A stretch of DNA of 64,000 nt from Patescibacteria group bacterium (GTDB lineage: Bacteria > Patescibacteriota > Patescibacteriia > Magasanikbacterales > GWA2-37-8). Location of the stretch: contig SCQK01000004.1 in the NCBI GenBank assembly GCA_004321885.1, forward strand, positions 22,684 to 86,683, read 5' to 3'. Both the position numbers and the translations under genes were made by a program. Below are positions 1,155 through 52,104 of this stretch, piece after piece (within the stretch, counting starts at the first letter, position 1; each line of letters opens with the position of its first letter). The notes beneath the pieces are model-generated. The model saw only the letters and a program-made list of their open reading frames with translations, was not told the DNA's origin and searched no databases.

Positions 1155-1227
1155 GCGCCTGTAGCTCATCGGTTAGAGCAATTGCCTTATAAGCAATGGG
1201 CAGATGGTCCGACTCCATCCAGGCGCA
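1155..1227 (+). tRNA. tRNA with anticodon UAU (Ile, AUA-decoding); no CCA encoded
   Basis: Hand-folded cloverleaf: acceptor GCGCCUG/CAGGCGC, D-arm GCUC-AUCGGUUA-GAGC, anticodon stem AUUGC/GCAAU with loop C-U-UAU-A-A, 5-nt variable loop, T-arm GAUGG-UCCGACU-CCAUC. Confidence 0.7.
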
Positions 1228-1234
1228 CGAATAA

Positions 1235-1894: not shown

Positions 1895-2656
1895 ATGCCC
1901 AAGCAACCTTATAAAATCATTGCTGAAACTGCGGATTATCTGGTGGTGGAAAAACCGGCCGGCCTGTTGACGCATTCCACCGCCAAACGCGAGCCAGACT
2001 CACTGGCTGAGTTGTTGGCAAAAAAATACCCGGAAATGCGCGAGGTGGGCGACTCCCCGGCCGAACGCCCGGGCATTGCGCACCGGCTGGACAAAGAAGC
2101 CTCGGGCTTGCTGGCGGCGGCGCGCACCCAAAAGATGTTTGAACATTTGAAAAAACAGTTCCAGGAACGAACCGTGGAAAAAGAATACATCGCCCTGGTA
2201 CACGGCAAGGTGGCAAAAGATGTCGGCGAAATAAACTTCCCCATCGGCCGAGCGACGAACAAGGAGAGGATGGCGGCCAGGCCGTTTACCCCTCCCTCGC
2301 CACCACACCAAAAATTTTGGTGTGGTGGCGAGCCCTCCCCTTCTAAGGGGGAGGGGAAAATGGCCAGCACTGAATTTGAGGTGGAAAAGCGATTCATCAA
2401 TTTCACCCTATTGCGCGTCAAAATCCACACCGGCCGCATGCACCAGATTCGCGTTCATTTGCTCGCCTACGGCAACCCGCTCGTCGGCGACCCGCTCTAC
2501 ATCAAAAGAAAACAAAAGCGCAAATGGGACCAGGCGCTGGGACGACTTTTCTTGCACTGCGTAAAATTAGTGTTCAAAGATTTGAATGGGGCGCCGCGAA
2601 CATTTACTTCCCCGTTGCCGCTTGAATTGGAAAATTTTCTTAAAAAAATAAAGTAG
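1895..2656 (+). CDS. RluA-family pseudouridine synthase carrying a 24-aa in-frame insertion encoded by a palindromic repeat
   Basis: HRLDKEASG and GRMHQIRVHL motifs. The insertion FTPPSPPHQKFWCGGEPSPSKGEG sits between conserved segments. Confidence 0.8.
   Translation: MPKQPYKIIAETADYLVVEKPAGLLTHSTAKREPDSLAELLAKKYPEMREVGDSPAERPGIAHRLDKEASGLLAAARTQKMFEHLKKQFQERTVEKEYIALVHGKVAKDVGEINFPIGRATNKERMAARPFTPPSPPHQKFWCGGEPSPSKGEGKMASTEFEVEKRFINFTLLRVKIHTGRMHQIRVHLLAYGNPLVGDPLYIKRKQKRKWDQALGRLFLHCVKLVFKDLNGAPRTFTSPLPLELENFLKKIK
2297..2356. repeat. Near-perfect 35-bp palindrome (TCGCCACCACACC..GGTGTGGTGGCGA) plus a family-A GC-rich palindromic element, in frame inside rluA
   Basis: Arms 2297..2309 and 2319..2331 are exact reverse complements. 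CCCTCCCCTTCTAAGGGGGAGGGG lies at 2333..2356. Confidence 0.8.
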
Positions 2657-3251: not shown

Positions 3252-3276
3252 ATTCCCCCGACTAAGTCGGGGGAAT
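3252..3276. repeat. Family-B hairpin ATTCCCCCGACTAAGTCGGGGGAAT overlapping the rplS ribosome-binding site (RBS) and first ATG
   Basis: A 10-bp perfect stem. The 3' arm GGGGGAA is the only SD-like sequence for rplS. Confidence 0.7.
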
Positions 3277-3628: not shown

Positions 3629-3705
3629 CTGGCTCCATACTCTGTGTGGAGCCAGTTTGCAATACGGCTCCACAGCCCCGACTAAGTCGGGGACTATGGA
3701 GCCAG
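3629..3705. mobile_element. MITE-like family-B element with two stacked hairpins, in reverse orientation relative to the copies at 13683
   Basis: CTGGCTCCATACTCTGTGTGGAGCCAG + TTTGCAATAC + GGCTCCACAGCCCCGACTAAGTCGGGGACTATGGAGCC. It is the reverse complement of the 13683..13769 unit except for the central loop base. Confidence 0.7.
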
Positions 3706-3733: not shown

Positions 3734-6658
3734 TTATCCTTTTAAGTACTTCCCGGTCCAGCTTTTTTTGCTCTTCATAATATCACGCGGAGCGCCCGCG
3801 GCCACAATCTCTCCGCCCTTGTCCCCGCCCTCTGGCCCCATGTCTATCACCCAATCGGCTGAACGTATCACGTCCAGATTGTGCTCTATCACCAGCACGG
3901 TGTTGCCTTTGGCCACCAATCTGTTCAACACTTCCAACAAATGTTTTATATCTTCAAAATGCAAGCCAGTGGTGGGTTCGTCCAAAATATATAATGAATG
4001 TCCGGACGCGCTGCGCGACAGCTCGGCGGACAGCTTTATTCTCTGGGCTTCGCCGCCCGAAACCGTGGTGGCCGGCTGGCCCAGCTGAACATAGCCCAAA
4101 CCGATTTCGCGCAACACGCCCAACTTGCCGGCGATGGGCGGAACGTCGTTAAAAAAAGCAAAGGCCTCGTCTACGGTCATACGCAAGACATCGGCGATAT
4201 TCTTGTTGCGGTAATGTATCTCCAGGGCCTCGCGATTATAGCGGTCTCCGCCGCACTCATTGCACTGCATGTACACGTCGGCCAAAAATTGCATGGGGAT
4301 GCGCACATAGCCCTCACCGGCGCAGGCCTCGCAACGGCCCCCGCCCTTCACGTTAAAACTGAACTTGCCGGCGTCGTAGCCGTTCATTTTGGCTTCGGGC
4401 AAACCGGCGAACAAATCGCGAATCAAAGTAAACAGCCCCGTGTACGTAGCCGGATTACTGCGCGGGGTGCGGCCGATGGGCGACTGGTCCACGGTAATTA
4501 CTTTGTCAATATTTTCAATGCCTTTAATTTTTTTGTGCTCGCCCGGCAAATCTTTGGCCCGATAAAAATGGCGGGCCAGCTGTCTGCCCAAAATATCCAC
4601 GATGAGCGAAGACTTGCCCGAACCAGACACGCCGGTCACGCACACGAATTTGCCCAAGGGGATGTCGGCGTCCACATTTTTCAAATTAAAGGCCCTGGCG
4701 CCGAGGATAGAAATTTTTTTGTTGGATTTTTGCAGACGCGCCCCCATTTTTATGGGCAGGACGCCCCGGCCGACTAGATACTTTCCCGTAACCGATTTTT
4801 TATTTTTTTTTATCTGTTGTAAACTGCCGGCCGCCACGATTTCGCCGCCGGAGAGGCCGGCGCCCGGCCCCATATCAATTAAATAATCCGCGCCGGCCAT
4901 CATAGCGCTGTCGTGCTCCACCACTATTACAGTGTTGCCCAAATCGCGCAAAAATTTCAGGGCGCCGATGAGTTTGGCGTTGTCTTTGGGATGCAGGCCC
5001 ACCGAAGGCTCGTCTAAAATATATATAATGCCGGTAAGGCCCGACGACAGCTGGCCGGCCAAACGCACGCGCGTCACCTCTCCACCCGAGAGCGTGTTCA
5101 TGGCGCGCCCCAGCGACAAGTATCCCAAGCCCACCTCCTGTAAATTTTGCAAGCGCTTGATTGTTTCTTTGATGATGGTTTCACCGTGCTGGGCAAAAAC
5201 TTTGCCTCCCATCCCCCATTTGTCCCCCCCTCTGGCAGAGGAAGAAAGCTTTTCCAAAACCGACACGGCTTGCCCGGCCGACAGCTCGGAAATATCCGCG
5301 ATGCTGTACTGGCCCAGCTTCACGGCCAATGACTCCACGCGCAAACGTTTGCCATGGCACAGGGAACACACCTGCTCGCGCATGTACTGTTCTATTTCAC
5401 CGCGCACATAATCAGAATCGGTCTCCAAATGCCGCTGGGTCAGATTGGTAATCACCCCGGAAAAAACGGTTTTCTTTCCGTCTATTTCGTATGTCTCGTT
5501 GTCGCCGTACAAAATCAGCTTCATCTGCGCATCGGAAAGTTCTGCTACTGGCGCATTCAGAGAAAAATCATGTTTCTGCGCGACCGCGGCCAGAATTTTT
5601 TGGTACCACGTTTGATTGCCGGTAATGCGGGTCCAGGGCTGGATAGCGCCCTCGGCCAAAGTAAGCCGCTTGTTAGGCGCCACCAGCTCCGGGTCAACTT
5701 CCATGGTCACGCCCAAACCAGTACAACGCGGGCAGGCGCCATAAGGGCTGTTAAAACTAAAACTGCGCATGTCAATCGCCGGCATTACTTTGCCGCATTT
5801 AGCGCACAGCCCTTCGGTGGAAAACAACACTTCCCTCCCCCTTTTTAAGGGGAAGGCGGGGTGGGGGTAAGACGCCGCAATCACACTGCCGTTGCTCAAA
5901 TCCAAGGCCGTCTCCACCATTTTGGCGATGTTGGGCTGTTTCTTGGCATTCTGGGTGGAAATATTTCCCACCACCAGTTCCACGTTGTATTTTTTATTGG
6001 GCAAAAAACCAAAACGCGCGAATTCGTTTAGTTTCATCAGCTCGCCGTTTACCCGCACCGTGTCAAAACCCGACTTTTCCACTTTGTCCAGCAATGCGGC
6101 ATGACTGGGTTCCCCTCCCCCTTTTAGAGCTTGTCCCGAACTTGTTTCGGGAGGGAGGACAGAGGAGGGGGTATTTGGCGAGGATGGGGTCAATGGAGAC
6201 AACACCCACACCTCGGAACTATTCCGCGTCATCTTTCTCACTTCCTCGGTAATCTGGCCGGGCGTAAACGACATCACTGGCACGCCGCAACCGGGGCAGT
6301 ATTGCGCGCCCACGCGCGCGAAGAGCAAACGCAAATAATCGTAAATCTCGGTGATAGTGCCCACGGTGGAACGCGGATTCTGCGAAGAACTTTTCTGGCC
6401 GATGGCGATGGTGGGAGAAAGCCCCTCCACGCTGTCCACGTCCGGCTTGTCGCGCACGTCCATAAACTGGCGCGCGAAAGAAGACAGCGACTCGGCGTAG
6501 CGGCGCTGGCCCTCGGCGTAAATTGTGTCAAAGGCGAGCGAGGATTTTCCCGAACCGGACAAGCCGGTAATCACTACCAGCTTGTTCTTGGGAATTTCCA
6601 CGTTTATATTCTTCAAGTTGTGTACTCTCGCCCCTTTGATGATTATTTTATCAGCCAT
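3734..6658 (-). CDS. uvrA: Excinuclease ABC subunit A (UvrA) with two in-frame family-A repeat insertions
   Basis: 974 aa. Two ABC ATPase modules with Walker [11 protein letters not shown] and [10 protein letters not shown], signature LSGGE twice, and zinc-finger cysteines. Collinear with E. coli UvrA apart from the short inserts. Confidence 0.95.
5832..5868. repeat. Family-A GC-rich palindromic element, in frame in uvrA (encodes ..[15 protein letters not shown]..)
   Basis: CCCTCCCCCTTTTTAAGGGGAAGGCGGGGTGGGGGTA. The uvrA reading frame is uninterrupted. Confidence 0.8.
6112..6173. repeat. Family-A element split by a small internal palindrome, in frame in uvrA (encodes ..[31 protein letters not shown]..)
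   Basis: CCCCTCCCCCTTTT..[AGAGCTTGTCCCGAACTTGTTTCGGGAGGGAGGACAG]..AGGAGGGGGTA. Confidence 0.75.
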
Positions 6659-11785: not shown

Positions 11786-11801
11786 TTGCCCACGTCTTTT
11801 T

Positions 11802-11836
11802 CCTCCCCTTGTTAAGGGGAGGATTAAGGAGGGGTA
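11802..11836. repeat. Family-A GC-rich palindromic element, intergenic, upstream of rnj
   Basis: CCTCCCCTTGTTAAGGGGAGGATTAAGGAGGGGTA. Confidence 0.8.
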
Positions 11837-13682: not shown

Positions 13683-13852
13683 CTGGCTCCATAGTCCCCG
13701 ACTAAGTCGGGGCTGTGGAGCCGTATTGCAAACTGGCTCCACACAGAGTATGGAGCCAGCGGGTGTAGAAAATCGCTGGCTCCATAGTCCCCGACTAAGT
13801 CGGGGCTGTGGAGCCGTATTGCAAACTGGCTCCACACAGAGTATGGGGTCAG
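13683..13852. mobile_element. Two tandem MITE-like family-B elements between the convergent genes rnj and ldh
   Basis: Unit 13683..13769 (CTGGCTCCATAGTCCCCGACTAAGTCGGGGCTGTGGAGCCGTATTGCAAACTGGCTCCACACAGAGTATGGAGCCAG) is repeated at 13776..13852 with a degenerate last arm. Confidence 0.8.
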
Positions 13853-15243: not shown

Positions 15244-15268
15244 AAACGCCCCTGTTAAGGGGGCGTTT
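15244..15268 (-). terminator. Rho-independent terminator of rnpB
   Basis: AAACGCCCC-TGTTAA-GGGGGCGTTT, followed on the minus strand by a U-rich tract (plus-strand AAACAAAAA at 15232..15243). Confidence 0.6.
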
Positions 15269-15269
15269 G

Positions 15270-15724
15270 TGGTTCATGGTTATAAGCCGAATTTTGTACC
15301 CCGACGTTACGTCGGGGCGATGTTCATTTCTCTGGTCTTGACATTGCTGTCAAAATCTTAGCGAGCGAACTTTTTATCCCGACTAAGTCGGGACTCTGCT
15401 CTTGCGCCAGACAGGGCTTGGCACTCTTCGACGTTGCCGCCGAAGGGAGTATGGTAGCTTTGGTCTCGAGAACCACAACTCCCATACACTTTTCACCTTT
15501 GACGAACCCCGACTAAGTCGGGGTGAACGTCCGCCTGTGGCGGACTCTCATGAATCGCTAGTATTGTCTCTGTGCCGCTTTCCCTACGCCGACGTTGCCG
15601 CCGACGTGGCGGGTGTTACCCGTTGCCTTTTTCTTTACCGGCTAGTTCCGCTAAGGGCGGACAGACGGAAAGGGCGTTCGGACTTTCCTTCCCGACTAAG
15701 TCGGGACGAACATCTGCCACGAAC
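15270..15724 (-). ncRNA. rnpB: RNase P RNA, bacterial type A
   Basis: Minus-strand RNA reads ..GGAAGGAAAGUCCGAAC.. (P4 5' strand), ..GGGUAACACCCGCC.., ..AGGUGAAAAGUG.., ..AUGAACAUCG-CCCCGACGUAACGUCGGGG-UACAAAAUUCGGCUUAUAACC.. (P15-P18 and P4 3' strand; compare E. coli AUGAAUGACUGUCCACGACAGAACCCGGCUUAUCGG). P1 is GUUCGUGG/CCAUGAAC. The ORF-track ORFs 15023..15361 and 15402..15731 lie inside it. Confidence 0.85.
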
Positions 15725-15730
15725 TGATTA

Positions 15731-23224: not shown

Positions 23225-25120
23225 ATGGAAAAAGACCCCCGATTTGTCTCTAAATCTTTGGACAATCCGGAGGAGCCGGCCAAAGTCATAAAACCGCGCC
23301 GAAAAGTGACACGCAAAAAAATCGCGCCGGTCAAAAGGGTGAGCAAAAAAGAAAGGCAAATCAATTCCCAGCTCACTTCCATATACAGCGACGCCAACGG
23401 CCGCATCCCCAGCATGGACCGCATTATCATCAAACGAAATCATCCGCTGGTGAAGATTTTTTTCTTTCTGCTCGTCGTGGGCGGGGCCCTGGCCGCGGCG
23501 GCCTGGTCTGGCCTTTTGGTTTTGCCGGAAAAAAAATTCGCCGAAGAAAAAGTGTCGCTAGTCGTGCGCGGGCCAATGGCCGCCGCCCTGGGCGCCACCA
23601 CCACCTATACTATTGCCTACAAAAATGACCAAAACGCCACTCTGAATAACGCGGTGCTCTCGACGCAATTTCCCAAAGACTTTGTTTATCTCTCCAGCGA
23701 ACCAACGGCCCGCAACTCGGGCAACAGCGAATGGCAGCTGGGCTCGGTGGGCCCGGGCGAGGGCAGACAAATCACGATTACCGGCCTGCTCTACGGCCGG
23801 CCCGGGGGCGAGCAGTCGTGGCGCGTCTTTCTCACCTACCGGCCGCAAAACATGAACTCTGACTTGCAAAAAATCGCCATCTACAACGTGGCCGTGGAAG
23901 AGGCCGGCGTGTCGCTCGCTATTGCCGGACCGGCCAAGGCTGTCTTGGGAAACAAAGCAGAATATACTTTCCGCGCCACCGCCGCCGACAAATGGCCGGC
24001 CGGCAAATTGGAGCTCCAGCCAATCCTGCCGGATAATTTTTACCTTGTTTCTTCCTCGCCGGCTTTGGATAAAAACAAAATTTGGACCATTAAAAATACG
24101 CCCGCGACCAGCACTATTGTTTATAAAATCGCGGGCAAGTTCAGTACTTCCTCGGAAAACGCGGCGGTCATAAAAGGAACCCTGTCGCTGGCGGCCAAAG
24201 AAACCGGCCGGCTGTTTGAGCTGGCCAGCGCCGGCGCCGACACCCAGTTGGAAGACAACGACATCAGTCTTAATCTGGCAGTCAACGGCTCCACCGGCAA
24301 TATGAACGCGAGCCCGGGAGAACTGCTCAATATGTCGCTGTTTTTGAAAAATATGACGCGGCTGGAAATGAAAAACGCGGCCATCAAGTTGGCGATAGAC
24401 GCGCCTTCGTACAAAAAACAAAGCGTGCTCAACTGGACGGAAATCACCGACGAACTGGACGGCGTCATCAGCGGAGCCCAGCTTGGAGATAATGTGCGGC
24501 GGGGAGAAATCACCTGGGACAAAGCCAAATTGCCCGCGCTGGCCAAACTAAAGCCCAATGACTCGGCGAGCATAGACGTGCGCCTGCCCATCAAAGACAG
24601 CCAGGCATTCGCCTTGGCCGAACTGAAAACCTTTGAAATAAAAATCGCGGCCGAGCTGACTTACACCGACAACAACAACAAAACGCAAGTCCTGGCTACC
24701 GCTCCCATCGTCATCAGATTAAATTCCGACCTTAAGTTAGAAGTGCGCGATACCATCACGAGTGGCGACGCGGCCAAAGAAGAGCATAAAGCCGTGTGGG
24801 TGCTGACCAATAATTTTCATCCGGTGAAAAACATAAATATATCCGCGGATATCTACGGCCTGATTGACTGGTTTGGCGGCAATACCTCCACGGTGCCGGC
24901 CGGCCAGCTGACCTACGACCCCAAGGCGCAAAAAATCACGTGGACCGTAAACGAGATGCCGCTTTCCGTGGATACCCTGGCCCTGCCGTTTACTTTCACT
25001 TTGAAGCAAAAAAATACCACGCAAAAAGTGCTGGTATCAAAGGCGCATGTGCAGGCCGTGGATGCGACCACCGGCGAAGCGCTTGATTTTATGGGCGATG
25101 CCATCGGCCTCAATCCTTAG
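23225..25120 (+). CDS. Membrane-anchored protein with repeated beta-sandwich (DUF11/CARDB-like) domains
   Basis: Basic N-terminus, TM IFFFLLVVGGALAAAAW, then a roughly 550-aa T/S/N-rich repetitive extracellular region. Confidence 0.5.
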   Translation: MEKDPRFVSKSLDNPEEPAKVIKPRRKVTRKKIAPVKRVSKKERQINSQLTSIYSDANGRIPSMDRIIIKRNHPLVKIFFFLLVVGGALAAAAWSGLLVLPEKKFAEEKVSLVVRGPMAAALGATTTYTIAYKNDQNATLNNAVLSTQFPKDFVYLSSEPTARNSGNSEWQLGSVGPGEGRQITITGLLYGRPGGEQSWRVFLTYRPQNMNSDLQKIAIYNVAVEEAGVSLAIAGPAKAVLGNKAEYTFRATAADKWPAGKLELQPILPDNFYLVSSSPALDKNKIWTIKNTPATSTIVYKIAGKFSTSSENAAVIKGTLSLAAKETGRLFELASAGADTQLEDNDISLNLAVNGSTGNMNASPGELLNMSLFLKNMTRLEMKNAAIKLAIDAPSYKKQSVLNWTEITDELDGVISGAQLGDNVRRGEITWDKAKLPALAKLKPNDSASIDVRLPIKDSQAFALAELKTFEIKIAAELTYTDNNNKTQVLATAPIVIRLNSDLKLEVRDTITSGDAAKEEHKAVWVLTNNFHPVKNINISADIYGLIDWFGGNTSTVPAGQLTYDPKAQKITWTVNEMPLSVDTLALPFTFTLKQKNTTQKVLVSKAHVQAVDATTGEALDFMGDAIGLNP

Positions 25121-26048
25121 CATCCAAAAATTTTTCAACCAACTCTTCGGCCTTTTTTGGGTCGCTTCCCTCAATCCATTTTATCCTCTGGTCGCGCTTA
25201 AACCATGTAATCTGGCGCTTGGCGTAATTTTTTGTGTCTTTTTTGAGCGTCGCCAAGGCCTGCTCCAAACTCATCTCGCCGCGCAGATAATAGCCGATTT
25301 GCCGGTAGCCGAGCGTGCTCATGCTGGGCAAATCCCATCCGTATTTTTGCTTGGTTAAGCCAGACACTTCTTCAAGCAGGCCGCGCTTAATGTATGAATC
25401 GCATCTTTCCTCTATGCGCTTTAACAAAATTTCTTTGGGCCAGTGAAGGCCGATTTGCAAAACGTCAAACAAGGGCGCGCCCTTTTTTCTTTGCGATGAA
25501 AATGACGCGCCCGTGATTATTTGCACTTCCAGGGCGCGAATCACGCGGCGCGGATTTTTGAGGTCAATTTTACGGGCGCCGGCCGGGTCAAGTTGCCGCA
25601 ACAACCTGGCCAACTCGTCCAAACCCTTGCTTTCCAGACTGCGGCGCAAATTTTTGTTTGGCGCGATGGCCGGGATGTCAAGATTGTCAATTAAAGACCA
25701 GAGGTAAAGGCCGGTGCCGCCCACGACAATCGGCAATTTCCCGCGCGCGCTGATATCGCGGCAAATTCTGATTGCCGCGGACTTAAAATCAGCCACCGTG
25801 TAATTTTTGCCCGGGTCTATGATGTCCATCAGATAGTGCGGCACGGCTTCCACGAAATACGCTTTGTGCCGGCCGTGGCGGCGCCACTCGCCCACGGGCT
25901 TGTCCGTGGCAATGTTCATTTTTTGATAAATCTGCCGCGAATCAGCCGAAACAATCTCGCCGTTAAATTTTTTGGCCAGCGCGATGCCCAGCTCGGTTTT
26001 GCCCGAAGCCGTGGGCCCGACAATGGCGATGATTTTAGGAAGAGACAT
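25110..26048 (-). CDS. miaA: tRNA dimethylallyltransferase
   Basis: P-loop IAIVGPTASGKTELG, SADSRQIYQKMNIATDKP. The start is refined to MSLPKII (ATG 26048), because the ORF-track N-terminal extension is translated repeat sequence. The stop is TGA. Confidence 0.85.
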   Translation of the reverse strand: MSLPKIIAIVGPTASGKTELGIALAKKFNGEIVSADSRQIYQKMNIATDKPVGEWRRHGRHKAYFVEAVPHYLMDIIDPGKNYTVADFKSAAIRICRDISARGKLPIVVGGTGLYLWSLIDNLDIPAIAPNKNLRRSLESKGLDELARLLRQLDPAGARKIDLKNPRRVIRALEVQIITGASFSSQRKKGAPLFDVLQIGLHWPKEILLKRIEERCDSYIKRGLLEEVSGLTKQKYGWDLPSMSTLGYRQIGYYLRGEMSLEQALATLKKDTKNYAKRQITWFKRDQRIKWIEGSDPKKAEELVEKFLDAKD

Positions 26049-26056
26049 AGGTCGTT

Positions 26057-26165
26057 CCCCTCCCCTTGATATCTGCGGATATTTACTCATTCGTTCGGAA
26101 GTAAAAGTATAAACTTTTACTTCACTCACTCATTTCGTAAATAAGGGGAGGGTTAGGGAGGGGTA
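26057..26165. repeat. Composite: a family-A element (CCCCTCCCCTTGAT ... ATAAGGGGAGGGTTAGGGAGGGGTA) split by a 70-bp AT-rich GAGTGA-family element
   Basis: Left half at 26057..26070 and right half at 26141..26165. The insert at 26071..26136 contains the palindrome GAAGTAAAAGT-ATA-AACTTTTACTTC and ATATCTGCGGATAT. The right half encodes the miaB C-terminus LPLPNPPLIYEMSE. Confidence 0.75.
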
Positions 26166-27456
26166 AAATAATTTCACCCTTTAAGACCCAAACATCAGCG
26201 GAAGTAATCTTAACATCCAAAATTTTTCCAATCAAATTTTTTGCGCCGGCAAACTGCGCGAGCTTCATTTCCGAAGAGTTGCCCGAGCAAATCCCTGCCT
26301 CGCATTTGTCCGCCAATACCGAAACTGTTTTGCCGATGTATTTTTGATTTTTGCGATAAGTTGTTTCTTCCATCAATTCTTGTAAAATCTGCCAGCGGCG
26401 CTTTTTTTCTAGGCGCGGCACATCATCTTTGAAGGCCCTGGCCGCGGCCGTCCCACTGCGCTGACTATACATGGCCGTGTAGGAAATGTCAAAATCACAC
26501 TCTTTGTACAGAGCCACCGTGTTTTGAAACTGTTTCTCGGTCTCGCCGCAAAAACCCGCGATAATATCCGTGCCAATGGCGATACTTGGTTTGGCCTGGC
26601 GGATTTTTTTTATCAAATCAATATATTGCTCCCGCGTGTACTGGCGATTCATCTTGCGCAAAATTTCATTATCCCCGCTTTGAACCGGCAGGTGCAGATA
26701 ATTCACCTGCTTGGGCAGTTTCAGCGCCTCTATTTGCGCGTCGGAAAAATAACGCGGGTCCGCGGCGGTAAAATGCAAGCGCTCCAACCCAGCCAACTTA
26801 TTCAGCTCTTTCAGTAAATCGACGAAACTGTCCCCCTCCCCCTTTTTAAGGGGGAGGTTGGGTAGGGGTAAATCCGGATCGCGGTAATTATTCACCACCT
26901 GCCCGAGCAGAATAATTTCTTTCGCGCCATTTTCAATCGCTATTTTTACCTCGTTAATAATTTCTTTGGCCGGCCGGTTTTTCTCGCGGCCGCGCGCCTG
27001 CGGCACCACGCAATAGGTGCAATAATTATCACAGCCGGTCTGAATAGTGATAAACGTTTGAAATCTACTCGTTCGCGCCGGCGCCAACTCTAAATAATCT
27101 CCAAGGTCAGCGCCTCCCAGCCATCTTGACAGCACCCCCATTTCGTGTATCGGAAAATACAAGTCAACCCCTTTTAGCCTGCTTTTTAACTTCCCGTCTT
27201 TGTCGCGGCCCGGCATACAGCCGGTAACAGCGATTGTCAAATCCGGCTTTTTTGCCTTAAGTTGGCTCCAATTTCGCACTAGCCCGTGAACGCGGTCTTC
27301 GGCGCTTTGGCGCACCGAGCAGGTATTGACAATTAGTAAATCCGAGTTTTCGGCTTTGGCGCTTCTGGTCATCCCCAAGAAATTCAAAAAACCGGCGATT
27401 CTCTCTGAATCGTTTTTGTTCATCTGACAGCCGAAGGTAACGAGAAAATACTTCAT
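26122..27456 (-). CDS. miaB: tRNA methylthiotransferase, radical-SAM MiaB family
   Basis: MTTase N-terminal domain (FLVTFGCQMNKNDSE), radical-SAM CxxxCxxC (GCDNYCTYCVVP), TRAM C-terminus. Contains an in-frame family-A insert ([16 protein letters not shown]). Confidence 0.85.
   Translation of the reverse strand: MKYFLVTFGCQMNKNDSERIAGFLNFLGMTRSAKAENSDLLIVNTCSVRQSAEDRVHGLVRNWSQLKAKKPDLTIAVTGCMPGRDKDGKLKSRLKGVDLYFPIHEMGVLSRWLGGADLGDYLELAPARTSRFQTFITIQTGCDNYCTYCVVPQARGREKNRPAKEIINEVKIAIENGAKEIILLGQVVNNYRDPDLPLPNLPLKKGEGDSFVDLLKELNKLAGLERLHFTAADPRYFSDAQIEALKLPKQVNYLHLPVQSGDNEILRKMNRQYTREQYIDLIKKIRQAKPSIAIGTDIIAGFCGETEKQFQNTVALYKECDFDISYTAMYSQRSGTAAARAFKDDVPRLEKKRRWQILQELMEETTYRKNQKYIGKTVSVLADKCEAGICSGNSSEMKLAQFAGAKNLIGKILDVKITSADVWVLKGEIILPLPNPPLIYEMSE
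26832..26870. repeat. Family-A element in frame inside miaB
   Basis: CCCCCTCCCCCTTTTTAAGGGGGAGGTTGGGTAGGGGTA. Confidence 0.8.
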
Positions 27457-45253: not shown

Positions 45254-45268
45254 CCCGACTCAGTCGGG
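45254..45268. repeat. Short family-B hairpin CCCGACTCAGTCGGG embedded in a larger inverted repeat (GGATGTGTTC..GAACACATCC, 45228..45312)
   Basis: Nested stem-loops that also include GAGGCCTC and CTTTTCCGCGCGCGAAAAG palindromes. Confidence 0.6.
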
Positions 45269-46605: not shown

Positions 46606-47046
46606 TTATTTTACTTCTCCGCCCGCCGCCCTCACCTGCTCCACCGCCGCCTTGGTCAATCTCAATCCTTCAATCGTCAACTTCTTGGTCAATGCGCCGG
46701 TGTTCAAAATTTTGGCGGCCAGAGCGTTCTTGCTTATTATACCCTTTTCCGCCAAACTCTTCAAAGTGACTGTTTCGTTGGCGCTAAAATTTTTTTCCAA
46801 ATCGCCAAGCAAAACCTCGGCCGGCTTTACGGCCAAACTCTTGAACCCGCGCAGTTTGGGCGTGGACTGCATTTGAAATTTGAAACCCAGCAATTTCAAT
46901 CCGGCGCTGCCGCCCGAGCGGGCGGTCTGGCCCTTGCCGCCGCGGCCCGAATAATTGCCGTGTCCAGACGCGTTGCCGCGCCCCCGTTTTTTCTTGGCAT
47001 GGCGCGCGCCTTTAGCCGGCTTGATTGTATGGGGTTGTAAAATCAT
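46606..47046 (-). CDS. rplO: 50S ribosomal protein L15
   Basis: Gly/Arg-rich N-terminus (KKKRGRGNASGHGNYSGRGGKGQ). Position after rpsE. Confidence 0.85.
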   Translation of the reverse strand: MILQPHTIKPAKGARHAKKKRGRGNASGHGNYSGRGGKGQTARSGGSAGLKLLGFKFQMQSTPKLRGFKSLAVKPAEVLLGDLEKNFSANETVTLKSLAEKGIISKNALAAKILNTGALTKKLTIEGLRLTKAAVEQVRAAGGEVK

Positions 47047-47534
47047 ACTGTTTTTTGGCTTACAGGCTTAAACATCTGCAAGGCTTCAAACGTTGCTTTG
47101 GCAATCGTCACTTTATTTTTAGTCTTGCCCAAAATTTTGGAAGAGACATTGGGCACGCCGGCCAATTCCAAAATGGCGCGCACGGCCCCGCCGGCGATAA
47201 TACCCGAGCCCTTGGGCGCCGGCATCAGCAATACCGTGGCCGCTTTGAACTTGCATAAAATAGAATGCGGAATGGTTTCGTTTATAATGGGAACCGTAAT
47301 CATTGATTTTTTGGCCTTGTTGCCGGCTTTTTCCACGCCGATTTGCACGTCGCGGCCCGTGGCCAAACCCAAACCAACCCGTCCGCGGCGGTCGCCCACG
47401 ATAACGCAGGCGCGAAAACTTAAATGCTTGCCGCCCTTGGTCACGCGCGTTACGCGGCTCAAATCCAAAATATGCTGGTCCAAATCGGATTTTTCCGGCC
47501 GCTCGCCTCTTTTGCCTCTGCGCATTGGTTTCAT
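47043..47534 (-). CDS. rpsE: 30S ribosomal protein S5
   Basis: dsRBD + S5 C-terminal domain (VTKGGKHLSFRACVIVGDRRGRVGLGLATGRDV). Its stop overlaps the rplO start, so no L30 gene lies between. Confidence 0.9.
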   Translation of the reverse strand: MKPMRRGKRGERPEKSDLDQHILDLSRVTRVTKGGKHLSFRACVIVGDRRGRVGLGLATGRDVQIGVEKAGNKAKKSMITVPIINETIPHSILCKFKAATVLLMPAPKGSGIIAGGAVRAILELAGVPNVSSKILGKTKNKVTIAKATFEALQMFKPVSQKTV

Positions 47535-47552
47535 ATATTTTCCTTAGTTTTT

Positions 47553-47585
47553 CCTCCCCTTTTAGGGGAGGGACAGGGTGGGGTA
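47553..47585. repeat. Family-A element between rplR and rpsE
   Basis: CCTCCCCTTTTAGGGGAGGGACAGGGTGGGGTA. Confidence 0.75.
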
Positions 47586-47587
47586 GA

Positions 47588-47962
47588 TTAAAATTGCAAG
47601 CCGCCGGCCCTGGCGCCTTCAGCCAAGGCTTTGACGCGGCCGTGGTACTTGTATCCGCCGCGGTCAAAAACTATTTTGACTATATTTTTCTTCTGCGCTT
47701 TTTCGGCCAATAATTTTCCCGTCAAAAAACTCTGCGCCGCTTTGCCGCCATATCCTTCGGCTTTTTTCTCCTTGATTTGCGAGCCGTCGGCCGCGCACAG
47801 GGTCTGGCCCTTGTCGTCATCTATCAGCTGGGCGGAAATTTTTTTCAAACTGCGGAAAACCGAAAGCCGCGGCGTTTGGGCCGTGCCTTTAACATCGGCG
47901 CGCACGCGGCTGTGGCGCGCTTGCCTTAATTTATTTTTTGTGGGATTGAATAATCTTTTCAT
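47588..47962 (-). CDS. rplR: 50S ribosomal protein L18
   Basis: 124 aa; ..RHSRVRADVKGTAQTPRLSVFRSLKKISAQLIDD.. matches the L18 family. Confidence 0.85.
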   Translation of the reverse strand: MKRLFNPTKNKLRQARHSRVRADVKGTAQTPRLSVFRSLKKISAQLIDDDKGQTLCAADGSQIKEKKAEGYGGKAAQSFLTGKLLAEKAQKKNIVKIVFDRGGYKYHGRVKALAEGARAGGLQF

Positions 47963-51318: not shown

Positions 51319-51996
51319 TTATTGCTTCTTCGCCTCGGTTTGAGAAAATTTATCTCTCCGGCCAAAGGCCTCGCCGCGATAAATCCAAACCTTGACGCCG
51401 ATTTTTCCGTAAAGGGTATGCGCCTCGGCGAAGGCAAAGTCAACATCGCTGCGCAAAGTGATGAGCGACATCTTGCCGGCCGACAATTTTTCAGTGCGCG
51501 CGATTTCCACGCCGTTCAGTCTGCCGCCCAAAGAAATCTTCACCCCTTGGGCGCCCGCGCTCATCACCCGTTCAATGCTTTGCTTCATCACGCGCCGAAA
51601 CGGAATGCGCCTTTCTATTTCCGCGGCAATGCCCGCGGCCACAATAGTCGCCGACAAAGCCGGCTGGCGCACTTCGCGCACGTCTAATTTAACTTTCAAC
51701 CTAAACTGCAAAATTTCTCTTTCAATCTGCTTGCGAATGGCTTCCAAACCCTGGCCGCCGCGGCCCACGATAAAACCGGGCTTGGCCGCCAGCACGATAA
51801 TGGACAATTCCTTGTCATTGCGCTCAATGCTAAAGGCATCCACCCCCGCGTCTTTTAGTTTTTGCGCCAGCAAATTTCTAATCGCCACTTCCTGCTTTAA
51901 ATACAAGGGCATCTGCCCTTTTCTGGCAAACCATTTTGAATCCCAAAAATAAATGGTGGGAATGCGGTGAATTTTCGGATGGACTTTATGACCCAT
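51319..51996 (-). CDS. rpsC: 30S ribosomal protein S3
   Basis: [14 protein letters not shown].., KH domain + S3 C-terminal domain. Confidence 0.9.
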
Positions 51997-52009
51997 AAAC
52001 TAAACGAGT

Positions 52010-52104
52010 GAGGAAATGAATTAATTCATTTCCGAGCGAATGAGTTTATATCCGCAGATATAATTTAAAATTTCCAATTTACAATTACCAATTTCCAATT
52101 ATTG
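52010..52104. repeat. AT-rich composite repeat between rplV and rpsC: a GAGTGA-family element (perfect palindromes GGAAATGAATTAATTCATTTCC and TATATCCGCAGATATA) followed by a CCAAT-word block
   Basis: GAGTGA-GGAAATGAATTAATTCATTTCC-GAGCGAATGAGT-TTATATCCGCAGATATAATT + AAAATTTCCAATTTACAATTACCAATTTCCAATT. Confidence 0.7.

What the first reader, a model, noticed from the sequence alone, without database searches (positions are those of the whole stretch)
26057..26870. miaA-miaB junction: a family-A element interrupted by an AT-rich element, encoding the miaB C-terminal tail, with a second in-frame copy inside miaB
- The family-A halves (26057..26070 and 26141..26165) are separated by a 66-bp AT-rich GAGTGA-family element carrying its own palindromes.
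- This nesting suggests sequential insertions.
- The miaB C-terminus LPLPNPPLIYEMSE is translated from the right half.
- The ORF-track miaA N-terminus (MSEVKVYTFTSERMSKYPQISRGGERP) is translated repeat sequence; the real start is probably MSLPK at 26048.
- Copy 26832..26870 is in frame in miaB ([16 protein letters not shown]).
Basis: partly seen in the sequence, partly recalled or inferred. Interest (0 to 1): 0.65.

Follow-up and report, generated by a model that had tools for sequence, protein, structure and literature searches.

The report
Triplex-type repeat decorating miaB and miaA
A short G/C-rich repeat of a known triplex-forming class (BoxC/PIT-like) sits at the miaB-miaA junction and inside miaB of an uncultured Patescibacteria genome, where it is translated as harmless-looking extra peptide and has misled the deposited miaA start annotation.

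Summary
The window comes from a Magasanikbacteria-like Patescibacteria MAG.

- **Junction element.** Between miaB and miaA (both on the minus strand) lies a three-block repeat: CCCTCCCCTT, then AAGGGGAGGG-TTA-GGGAGGGGTA. Its first loop holds a 75-nt AT-rich hairpin element, which has two further copies in the window.
- **MiaB tail.** MiaB reads through the repeat to a TGA inside the AT-rich element. This adds a tail that orthologues lack.
- **MiaA start.** The 339-aa MiaA in the deposited annotation starts in translated repeat. The real start is MSLPK (ATG 26050..26048).
- **Internal copy.** A second copy (26832..26870) adds 13 codons to a hypervariable MiaB loop. AlphaFold gives pLDDT below 50 only in the loop insert (199-207) and the repeat-derived tail (433-437).

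"Family A" is not new. It meets the definition of a G/C-rich class II intrastrand triplex motif (BoxC/PIT/TM; Holder 2015). My scan finds 11 motifs in the window against 1.9 in shuffles. The same architecture occurs in cyanobacteria, Xanthomonadales and other candidate-phyla (CPR) bacteria.

The unusual point is that about half the copies here are translated in frame (UvrA twice, an RluD-like synthase, MiaB twice, RuvX), as with Rickettsia palindromic elements and intragenic REPs. How the repeat spreads is unknown.

The parts
26058..26067 (+). Family-A pyrimidine block (Y) CCCTCCCCTT, the left half. On the sense (minus) strand it reads AAGGGGAGGG and ends 7 nt before the miaA ATG.
   Evidence: inverted repeat I7, 10/10 complementary to 26143-26152.
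26068..26142 (+). AT-rich hairpin element filling loop 1 of the family-A motif. It contains the perfect 11-bp hairpin GAAGTAAAAGT/ACTTTTACTTC, the miaB stop codon (26124..26122) and the spurious GTG start (26129).
   Evidence: I4; copies elsewhere; fold.
26143..26165 (+). Family-A purine block AAGGGGAGGG, loop TTA, and reverse-Hoogsteen block GGGAGGGGTA (the right half). All 10 triads with the Y block are canonical class II triads (C-G-G, T-A-A, T-A-T).
   Evidence: triad rule from PMC4666352 applied by hand to the sequence.
26122..27456 (-). miaB coding sequence (444 aa: UPF0004 and radical SAM domains, then a C-terminal region aligning to solved MiaB up to residue 429).
26122..26166 (-). Repeat-derived MiaB C-terminal tail LPLPNPPLIYEMSE plus stop. 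Absent from orthologues and predicted disordered.
26832..26870 (+). Intact family-A copy inside miaB. It is read on the minus strand as [13 protein letters not shown] (codons 26872..34) in the loop after strand 180-184.
   Evidence: 10 triads, loops 3 and 3, 1 mismatch.
25110..26050 (-). miaA coding sequence from the likely true start (MSLPKIIAIVGPTASGKT..., 312 aa).
26051..26129 (-). Spurious 27-codon N-terminal extension of MiaA, used in the deposited annotation (TAN34042.1, 339 aa). It is translated AT-rich element plus G-rich arm.
2287..2359 (+). Family-A copy in frame in an RluD-like pseudouridine synthase (a 21-aa insert). It has a nested 35-nt palindrome at 2297-2333.
5834..5869 (+). 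Family-A copy in frame in uvrA (about 8 extra residues).
6108..6175 (+). Family-A copy in frame in uvrA (about 23 extra residues). Its loop and purine block are disrupted by a small hairpin.
11800..11836 (+). Intergenic family-A copy between tRNA-Leu and the RNase J gene.
41207..41258 (.). Palindromic pair of family-A motifs filling the spacer between an MgtE-N/CBS gene and an Nramp gene.
42493..42529 (+). Family-A copy forming the C-terminal tail (FTPPYSSPYKGEDN) of RuvX.
43721..43749 (+). Short (7-triad) family-A-like motif between adk and map.
47551..47584 (+). Family-A copy between the L18-like gene (47588..47962; my assignment from its translation) and the 163-aa ORF 47043..47534 that I take to be rpsE. 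Neither was scanned against Pfam.
51991..52061 (-). Second copy of the AT-rich element, directly upstream of the 225-aa ORF 51319..51996. I take this to be rpsC from gene order, not from a family search.
63835..63915 (-). Third, two-hairpin relative of the AT-rich element, ending ...TGTATAATATAGCC ATG.

Best explanation
**What it is.** The region is the miaB-miaA junction of a Magasanikbacteria-like Patescibacteria genome. In relatives the two genes abut, with a spacer of -4 to 8 nt. Here a 38-nt G/C-rich repeat occupies the junction. It has three blocks: a pyrimidine block, its Watson-Crick purine partner, and a mirror-image purine block. That is a class II intrastrand triplex motif of the BoxC/PIT/TM kind. 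Its first loop carries a 75-nt AT-rich hairpin element from a second small repeat family.

**Shown consequences.**
- The miaB frame runs on through the repeat and ends at a TGA inside the AT-rich element. This gives a disordered tail that orthologues lack.
- An upstream in-frame GTG creates a false 27-residue N-terminal extension of MiaA. Translation most likely starts at the ATG of MSLPK.
- A second, intact copy adds 13 codons to a surface loop of MiaB that is hypervariable and often carries other repeat-derived inserts in relatives.

**Inferred.**
- The repeats are structural or selfish DNA that persists only where it does no harm, meaning gene ends, spacers and permissive loops. Only the orientation that reads as open Pro/Leu...Lys/Gly/Glu codons survives in genes.
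- The peptides themselves have no function.
- The order of events (family A first, the AT-rich element later into its loop) is inferred.

**Unknown.** How the repeat is copied. There are no target-site duplications and no transposase in the window.
For: - **Anatomy and non-randomness:**
- **Orthologue and structure comparisons:**
  - MiaB homology ends at residue 429, and the loop carries 8 more residues than 7mjz.
  - Across 119 orthologues the tails are short and the loop is hypervariable.
  - MiaA homology starts at M28.
  - Three relatives show tight junctions and M..LPK starts.
- **AlphaFold MiaB model:** mean pLDDT 91.1. The only segments below 50 are 199-207 and 433-437.
- **The same repeat is in frame in other genes:** UvrA twice, an RluD-like synthase and RuvX.
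- **Triplex-class definition met:** 11 motifs, 9 G/C-rich and 7 with at least 10 triads. In 100 dinucleotide shuffles the means are 1.9, 0.06 and 0. The literature definition and in vitro triplex proof for the E. coli member are in PMC4666352. The E. coli TM sequence is in 5416 of 5426 genomes.
- **Cross-phylum occurrence of the same three-block architecture:**
- **Position bias:** only 4 of 11 motifs lie in gene interiors, which make up 81% of the window (P about 0.002).
- **AT-rich element is an independent repeat:**
- **Independent assembly is identical:**
Against: - No population or strain with an empty site was found. The nearest MiaB is only 66% identical, and the second assembly comes from the same sample. 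Insertion is therefore inferred from distant orthologues.
- Most MiaB orthologues have a native loop about as long as the one here. Replacement of a native loop, rather than a clean 13-codon insertion, cannot be excluded. The clean-insertion reading rests on the short-loop subgroup (NNYKDGD-YDFVDLL).
- Triplex formation by this particular sequence has not been measured.
- There is no expression or proteomic evidence for either start codon or for the tail.
Confidence: 0.8

Rival explanations
1. The junction composite is a selected RNA-level regulatory device. In the mRNA the C-rich block (being translated as the MiaB tail) pairs with the G-rich block just upstream of the miaA start. MiaA initiation would then depend on ribosomes finishing miaB (translational coupling), with the G-rich block acting as a Shine-Dalgarno site.
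For: - The sense-strand RNA folds into one long composite hairpin closed by the two family-A arms (-48.3 kcal/mol, z = -4.97).
- The G-rich arm ends 7 nt before the ATG.
- Relatives have tightly coupled or overlapping miaB-miaA junctions.
- Several other copies place the G-rich arm upstream of the next gene.
Against: - Most genes in the window have no SD-like sequence at all, so SD-dependent initiation is not the rule here.
- At the rpsE-like, Nramp and MgtE-like genes the G-rich arm is 20-29 nt from the start.
- The same repeat also sits inside genes, and at 11800 it lies in the opposite orientation. This fits tolerance better than design.
- E. coli PIT elements showed no promoter or terminator activity (PMC4666352).
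Confidence: 0.12
2. Family A is a REP/REPIN-type element mobilised by a RAYT-like HUH tyrosine transposase acting on single-stranded hairpins. Hairpin loops of existing copies are preferred targets, which would explain the nesting.
For: - The architecture is a hairpin plus a conserved unpaired flank ending in GTA(A/G/T), with no target-site duplications.
- Palindromic doublets exist.
- Three of about ten copies carry a foreign hairpin at an internal loop.
- REPs inside uvrA and pseudouridine synthase genes are documented (PMC3733652).
Against: - There is no 5' GTAG or CGTC tag.
- No transposase turned up among about 35 window proteins scanned against Pfam.
- Holder et al. found no link between TM motifs and mobile elements in E. 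coli.
- The third block is a mirror repeat, not an inverted repeat. REPs do not have this.
Confidence: 0.15
3. The repeat-encoded peptides (LPLPNxPL..KGEG) are functional protein modules, for example a proline-rich interaction motif, selected in MiaB, UvrA, RluD and RuvX.
For: - The same peptide type recurs in several nucleic-acid enzymes here and in a sister genome's PrmC-like protein, LPLPNLPLIKGKE.
- Di Nocera et al. speculated about functional effects on repair proteins.
Against: - The repeat is read in all three frames in different genes, giving different peptides.
- The segments are predicted disordered.
- The segments are absent from orthologues.
- Identical DNA occurs in non-coding spacers.
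Confidence: 0.04

Closest known systems
BoxC / PIT elements / TM_ECO: G/C-rich class II intrastrand triplex motifs (Hoyne & Maher 2000; Holder et al. 2015, PMC4666352)
   Same: - The block order and loops match. E. coli has CCCTCTCCCC-TTT-GGGGAGAGGG-TTA-GGGTGAGGGG. Here it is CCCTCCCCTT-loop-AAGGGGAGGG-TTA-GGGAGGGGTA.
- Stems are 9-11 nt, loop 2 is TTA or C/T-C/T-G, and palindromic doublets occur.
- The motif is strongly over-represented against scrambled sequence.
- Distribution between related genomes is patchy.
- The motif is associated with local indels and insertions.
   Different: - It does not match the strict TM_ECO consensus CCCTCNCCC...GGGNGAGGG.
- TM_ECO is always intergenic in E. 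coli K-12. Here about half the copies are translated in frame.
- The host is a small-genome Patescibacterium rather than a proteobacterium or cyanobacterium.
- The junction copy has a 75-nt loop and so probably cannot fold as a triplex.
Rickettsia palindromic elements (RPE; Ogata et al. 2000, as summarised in PMC10969869)
   Same: - It is a dispersed palindromic repeat in a reduced genome.
- It is repeatedly found in frame in unrelated housekeeping genes, at positions compatible with protein folding.
- It also occurs at gene termini.
   Different: - RPEs are about 100-150 bp, AT-rich and confined to Rickettsia.
- Family A is about 35-40 nt, G/C-rich, has a mirror third block, and is spread across phyla.
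- There is no sequence relationship.
Intragenic GTAG/CGTC-tagged REPs (Di Nocera et al. 2013, PMC3733652)
   Same: - These are 20-40 bp palindromic repeats, mostly at 3' ends of genes and sometimes inside genes.
- The intragenic cases notably include uvrA (double insertions) and pseudouridine synthases.
- N-terminal cases are often mis-annotated starts.
   Different: - Family A has no GTAG or CGTC tag.
- No RAYT is in evidence.
- Family A has a third mirror block.
Cyanobacterial small dispersed repeats (Elhai et al. 2008). Recalled from memory; the paper was not held in the library.
   Same: These are very short (21-27 nt) dispersed repeats, often nested inside other repeats, with patchy distribution. 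Many of the genome hits are from Nostocales.
   Different: I could not check whether any SDR family corresponds to this sequence.

Membership tests
Class II intrastrand triplex motif (ITxF definition, Holder 2015) | Three consecutive blocks, 5'-pyrimidine, purine, reverse-Hoogsteen-3', forming C-G-G / T-A-A / T-A-T triads. Stem 6-15 nt with at most 1 mismatch. | tested here: met
   My own scan finds 7 motifs with 10-11 triads, including 26835-26870. For the junction copy, checking its three blocks by hand against the triad rule gives 10 of 10 canonical triads (sequence).
Class II intrastrand triplex motif (ITxF definition, Holder 2015) | Both loops 1-6 nt. | tested here: not met
   This verdict applies to the junction copy only, where loop 1 is 75 nt because of the AT-rich element. 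The other 10-11-triad copies have loops of 1-5 nt, so the family meets the criterion.
Class II intrastrand triplex motif (ITxF definition, Holder 2015) | Over-representation relative to scrambled genome, especially for G/C-rich stems of at least 8 nt. | tested here: met
   Observed 11 motifs, 9 G/C-rich and 7 with at least 10 triads. The means over 100 dinucleotide shuffles are 1.92, 0.06 and 0.
Class II intrastrand triplex motif (ITxF definition, Holder 2015) | Actual triplex folding of the single strand (CD/NMR, as shown for TM_ECO). | not testable with these tools
   ViennaRNA models only hairpins and G-quadruplexes.
TM_ECO / BoxC in the strict sense | Consensus CCCTCNCCC N3-6 GGGNGAGGG N3 GGGNGAGGG. 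| tested here: not met
   Family A reads CCCTCCCCT / GGGGAGGG / GGGAGGGG. It is the same class but a different sequence family.
REP / REPIN (RAYT-associated) | Conserved 5' GTAG (or CGTC) tetranucleotide next to the hairpin. | tested here: not met
   The copies end ...GGGGTA(A/T/G) on the 3' side of the hairpin. There is no 5' tag on either strand.
REP / REPIN (RAYT-associated) | A cognate Y1/HUH transposase gene in the genome, flanked by the repeats. | tested here: inconclusive
   None among about 35 window proteins. Only 64 kb of the genome is available.
MITE | Terminal inverted repeats plus target-site duplication. | tested here: not met
   No direct repeats flank any of the copies (inspection of the flanks).
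Rickettsia palindromic elements | A 100-150 bp element of an RPE sequence family in Rickettsia. | tested here: not met
   Length 35-40 nt, unrelated sequence, different phylum. It behaves like an RPE in being translated in frame, but it is not a member.

The most novel reading that the evidence does not exclude
In small-genome Patescibacteria, triplex-class repeats may be actively copied through single-stranded intermediates into hairpin loops and into coding DNA. Essential genes (uvrA, miaB, recO, rluD, ruvX) would then carry triplex- or hairpin-forming DNA that pauses replication or transcription and continually generates loop and tail variation in proteins. This would be a Rickettsia-like 'selfish DNA in genes' system built on a cross-phylum triplex motif, whose copying enzyme is still unidentified.
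Probability: 0.15. Interest if true: 0.65.

Novelty: new member of a known kind. Interest (0 to 1): 0.4.

Why it matters
- **Annotation.** The deposited MiaA (TAN34042.1) carries a 27-residue artefact. MiaB, UvrA, RuvX and an RluD-like protein carry repeat-derived segments that will confuse alignments, domain boundaries and structure predictions for CPR proteins.
- **Biology.** The BoxC/PIT triplex-motif class is treated as strictly intergenic in E. coli. Here it can be tolerated, and translated, inside essential genes of a reduced genome. This parallels Rickettsia RPEs and intragenic REPs.
- **Open question.** The near-identical three-block architecture in cyanobacteria, Xanthomonadales and CPR bacteria, with no known copying mechanism, remains unexplained. 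This lineage, with its dense copies and nested insertions, could help address it.

Tried and rejected
- **Rfam.** No family matches either element.
- **G-quadruplex reading.** A G4 is predicted to compete with the hairpin in only 2 of 7 tested sequences. It is impossible for the G2-tract subfamily and for the sense strand. Rejected as a general explanation.
- **Shine-Dalgarno / coupling role.** Weakened, because most genes here lack SD-like sequences.
- **Intrinsic terminator or promoter at the junction.** No terminator was found, and none of the three promoter-like sites in 25800-27000 lies at the junction.
- **Target-site duplications.** None seen.
- **Transposase in the window.** None found.
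- **Empty-site search.**
  - The MiaB protein itself is not on record in the contig index.
  - The only other assembly (Logan, SRR8426592) is identical.
  - The nearest relatives are 66% identical.
- **Metagenome scan for the AT-rich element.** Zero hits.
- **Literature.** Exact motif strings are absent from the library. Elhai 2008 is not held.
- **Long-ORF test for intragenic copies in other genomes.** Unreliable in high-GC Stenotrophomonas. Only a few clear cases were accepted.
Full report
**Observation.** The sequence is as described. On the plus strand, CCCTCCCCTT (26058-26067) is perfectly complementary to AAGGGGAGGG (26143-26152), with 75 nt between them. TTA and GGGAGGGGTA (to 26165) follow. 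The right half recurs at 26847-26872 (85% identity) and the left half at 26830-26841 (92%). The 23-mer with up to 3 mismatches occurs 4 times in the window, against 0.00 expected. The only numerical slip is the interruption, which is 75 nt rather than 66. An independent Logan assembly of run SRR8426592 is 100% identical over 7.9 kb spanning both copies, so this is not an assembly artefact.

**Context.** miaB (27456..26122) and miaA (ORF 26129..25110) are on the minus strand. MiaB is 100% identical to an NCBI protein from a "Patescibacteria group bacterium" MAG, on a contig of 86,683 bp. The next relatives, mostly named Candidatus Magasanikbacteria, are at most 66% identical.

**Effect on MiaB.**
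- Alignment to solved MiaB (7mjz) ends at residue 429...LKGEI.
- Orthologues typically stop 2-4 residues after the conserved W-V-L-[RK]-G.
- The window protein continues ILPLPNPPLIYEMSE. LPLPNPPL (26166..26143) is the complement of the right half. IYEMSE and the TGA stop lie in the AT-rich element.
- The internal copy lies in the loop after LLGQVVNNYR, which carries 8 residues more than 7mjz.
- This loop is hypervariable in the family. Short-loop orthologues read NNYKDGD-YDFVDLL. Against these the window has a clean 13-codon addition: NNYRDPD-[[13 protein letters not shown]]-DSFVDLL.
- Most orthologues have an 18-residue native loop. Many carry other repeat-derived inserts of up to about 70 residues at the same point.
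- In one relative (L005) that loop holds a pair of different triplex-type motifs.
- An AlphaFold model built on 50 sequences has mean pLDDT 91.1. The only segments below 50 are 199-207 and 433-437, which fall in the insert and the tail.

**Effect on MiaA.**
- Homology to solved MiaA structures starts at residues 28-32.
- Three of five relatives examined start M-x(1-8)-LPK(I/V)(I/V)VI.GPT immediately after miaB. Their spacers are 8, 7 and -4 nt.
- The 27-residue extension from GTG 26129 is translated AT-rich element plus G-rich arm.
- The deposited annotation (TAN34042.1) uses the 339-aa form. The Logan gene call uses the 312-aa form.

**Family A across the window.** I find about ten loci:
- 2287-2359, in frame in an RluD-like synthase. 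It is a 21-aa insert that splits the PDB alignment.
- 5834-5869 and 6108-6175, both in frame in UvrA, adding about 8 and 23 residues relative to 2r6f.
- 11800-11836, intergenic.
- The miaB-miaA junction copy.
- 26832-26870, inside miaB.
- 41207-41258, a palindromic pair.
- 42493-42529, forming the RuvX tail.
- 43721-43749 and 47551-47584, in spacers.

The repeat is read in all three frames in different genes, and always in the orientation whose sense strand is C-rich first. Only 4 of 11 motifs lie in gene interiors, although these make up about 81% of the window (P about 0.002). This fits purifying selection that leaves copies only in spacers, at gene ends and in permissive loops.

**What family A is.**
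- The two purine blocks are mirror images, not inverted repeats: G4AG3|G3AG4 here, and G4AG2|G2AG4 in other copies.
- Together with the pyrimidine block they give canonical C-G-G, T-A-A and T-A-T triads. Even the terminal TT/AA/TA positions fit.
- This is the definition of a class II (purine-motif) intrastrand triplex. The E. coli example was first called BoxC, then PIT elements, then TM_ECO. It was shown by CD and NMR to fold as a triplex in vitro and was linked to local genomic instability (PMC4666352).
- My ITxF-like scan finds 11 motifs, 9 G/C-rich and 7 with at least 10 triads. The means over 100 dinucleotide shuffles are 1.9, 0.06 and 0.
- The E. coli sequence CCCTCTCCCCTTTGGGGAGAGGGTTAGGGTGAGGGG is present in 5416 of 5426 complete E. 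coli genomes, with a median of 17 places, all unannotated.
They came from Nostocales and other cyanobacteria, Stenotrophomonas and relatives, another Magasanikbacteria genome, a Nomurabacteria MAG, Nitrospirae and others.
- Almost all of these loci carried the unspecified left block and short loops (TTA, TTG, CTG, CCG).
- Clear in-frame cases exist elsewhere, for example LPLPNLPLIKGKE in a PrmC-like protein of the sister genome, and inserts in what look like MnmE and a Nostoc reductase.
- Family A does not match the strict TM_ECO consensus. It is a different sequence family of the same class.

**The AT-rich element.**
- It has a second copy at 52061..51991, with 29 of 32 identical bases at the 5' end. 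That copy has a different but still self-complementary central hairpin. It lies directly upstream of what I take to be rpsC.
- A two-hairpin relative sits at about 63915..63835.
- It is therefore an independent small repeat family, which supports nesting.
- Two other family-A copies also carry foreign hairpins at internal positions. One of those hairpins (2297-2333) recurs in frame in RecO.
- This agrees with the reported tendency of triplex-motif loci to accumulate local insertions and deletions.
- No copy of the AT-rich element was found in JGI metagenomes.

**How it works.**
- Shown: the anatomy, the altered reading frames and the absence of these segments from orthologues.
- Inferred: the repeats are tolerated passengers.
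- The sense RNA of the junction folds into one long hairpin closed by the family-A arms (-48.3 kcal/mol, z = -4.97). The G-rich arm ends 7 nt before the miaA ATG. A translational-coupling role is therefore conceivable. However, most genes in the window lack SD-like sequences, so I rate this low.
- A G-quadruplex is not a general alternative.
- No terminator or junction promoter was found.
- No Rfam family matches.
- No transposase was found, and there are no target-site duplications.
- The copying mechanism of this repeat class remains unknown.

**Novelty.** The repeat class is known. In-frame palindromic repeats are also known, as RPEs (PMC10969869) and as intragenic REPs, notably in uvrA and pseudouridine synthases (PMC3733652). 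What appears undescribed in the library searched is a triplex-class repeat that is frequently translated inside essential genes of a Patescibacterium. I file it as a new member of a known kind, of moderate interest, with a practical annotation consequence.

Noticed in passing
window 3257-3271, 3677-3691, 13697-13711, 13790-13804, 15378-15392, 15508-15522, 15691-15705, 45126-45140, 45254-45268: A third small hairpin repeat, CCCGACTAAGTCGGG, occurs 9 times against 0.01 expected. Three copies lie inside the RNase P RNA gene (15267..15725, minus strand). That gene spans 459 nt for a 367-position model, and the extra sequence sits in inserted hairpins.
   Followed up: partly
window 38077-38104 (and 2297-2333): A palindrome CCACCA(C/T)ACCAAAAATTTTGGTGTGGTGG is translated in frame in RecO, between the RecO_N and RecO_C domains (CHHTKNFGVVVG). 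The same palindrome is nested inside the family-A copy in the RluD-like gene.
   Followed up: partly
window 1155-1228: tRNA-Ile with anticodon TAT (UAU). This is an uncommon way for bacteria to read AUA.
   Followed up: no
window 38568-38631: A DUF3800-II RNA (Rfam RF02961, 67 bits) lies on the plus strand next to a DUF3800 protein gene on the minus strand, 38653..39195.
   Followed up: no
whole window: GC skew is negative on the plus strand in every 4-kb bin, whatever the gene orientation. The G-rich (class II) orientation of family A is on the plus strand in 9 of 11 motifs (plus my reading of the disrupted copies at 2287, 6108 and the junction). With so few non-coding copies, a replication-strand bias cannot be separated from the coding-frame constraint.
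   Followed up: partly
upstream regions of 27 genes across the window: Most start codons have AT-rich leaders with no Shine-Dalgarno-like sequence. About half of the SD-like matches belong to family-A copies lying upstream of the gene.
   Followed up: partly
window 25110-26129 (NCBI TAN34042.1): The deposited MiaA protein is the 339-aa form and includes 27 residues of translated repeat.
   Followed up: yes
L032 (Candidatus Magasanikbacteria GW2011_GWC2_37_14, LBSX01000017.1) versus L002-L004: Triplex-motif density differs sharply between related genomes. There are 8 G/C-rich motifs in 8 kb of L032 and none in 21 kb each of L002, L003 and L004. This matches the patchiness reported for Enterobacter strains.
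   Followed up: partly
L010, L090, L110 (Stenotrophomonas MAGs): The same three-block motif occurs there in regularly spaced tandem arrays, with periods of about 88-199 nt. It is often preceded by a GTAG-type REP (...GGCTCGGCACTAC).
   Followed up: no
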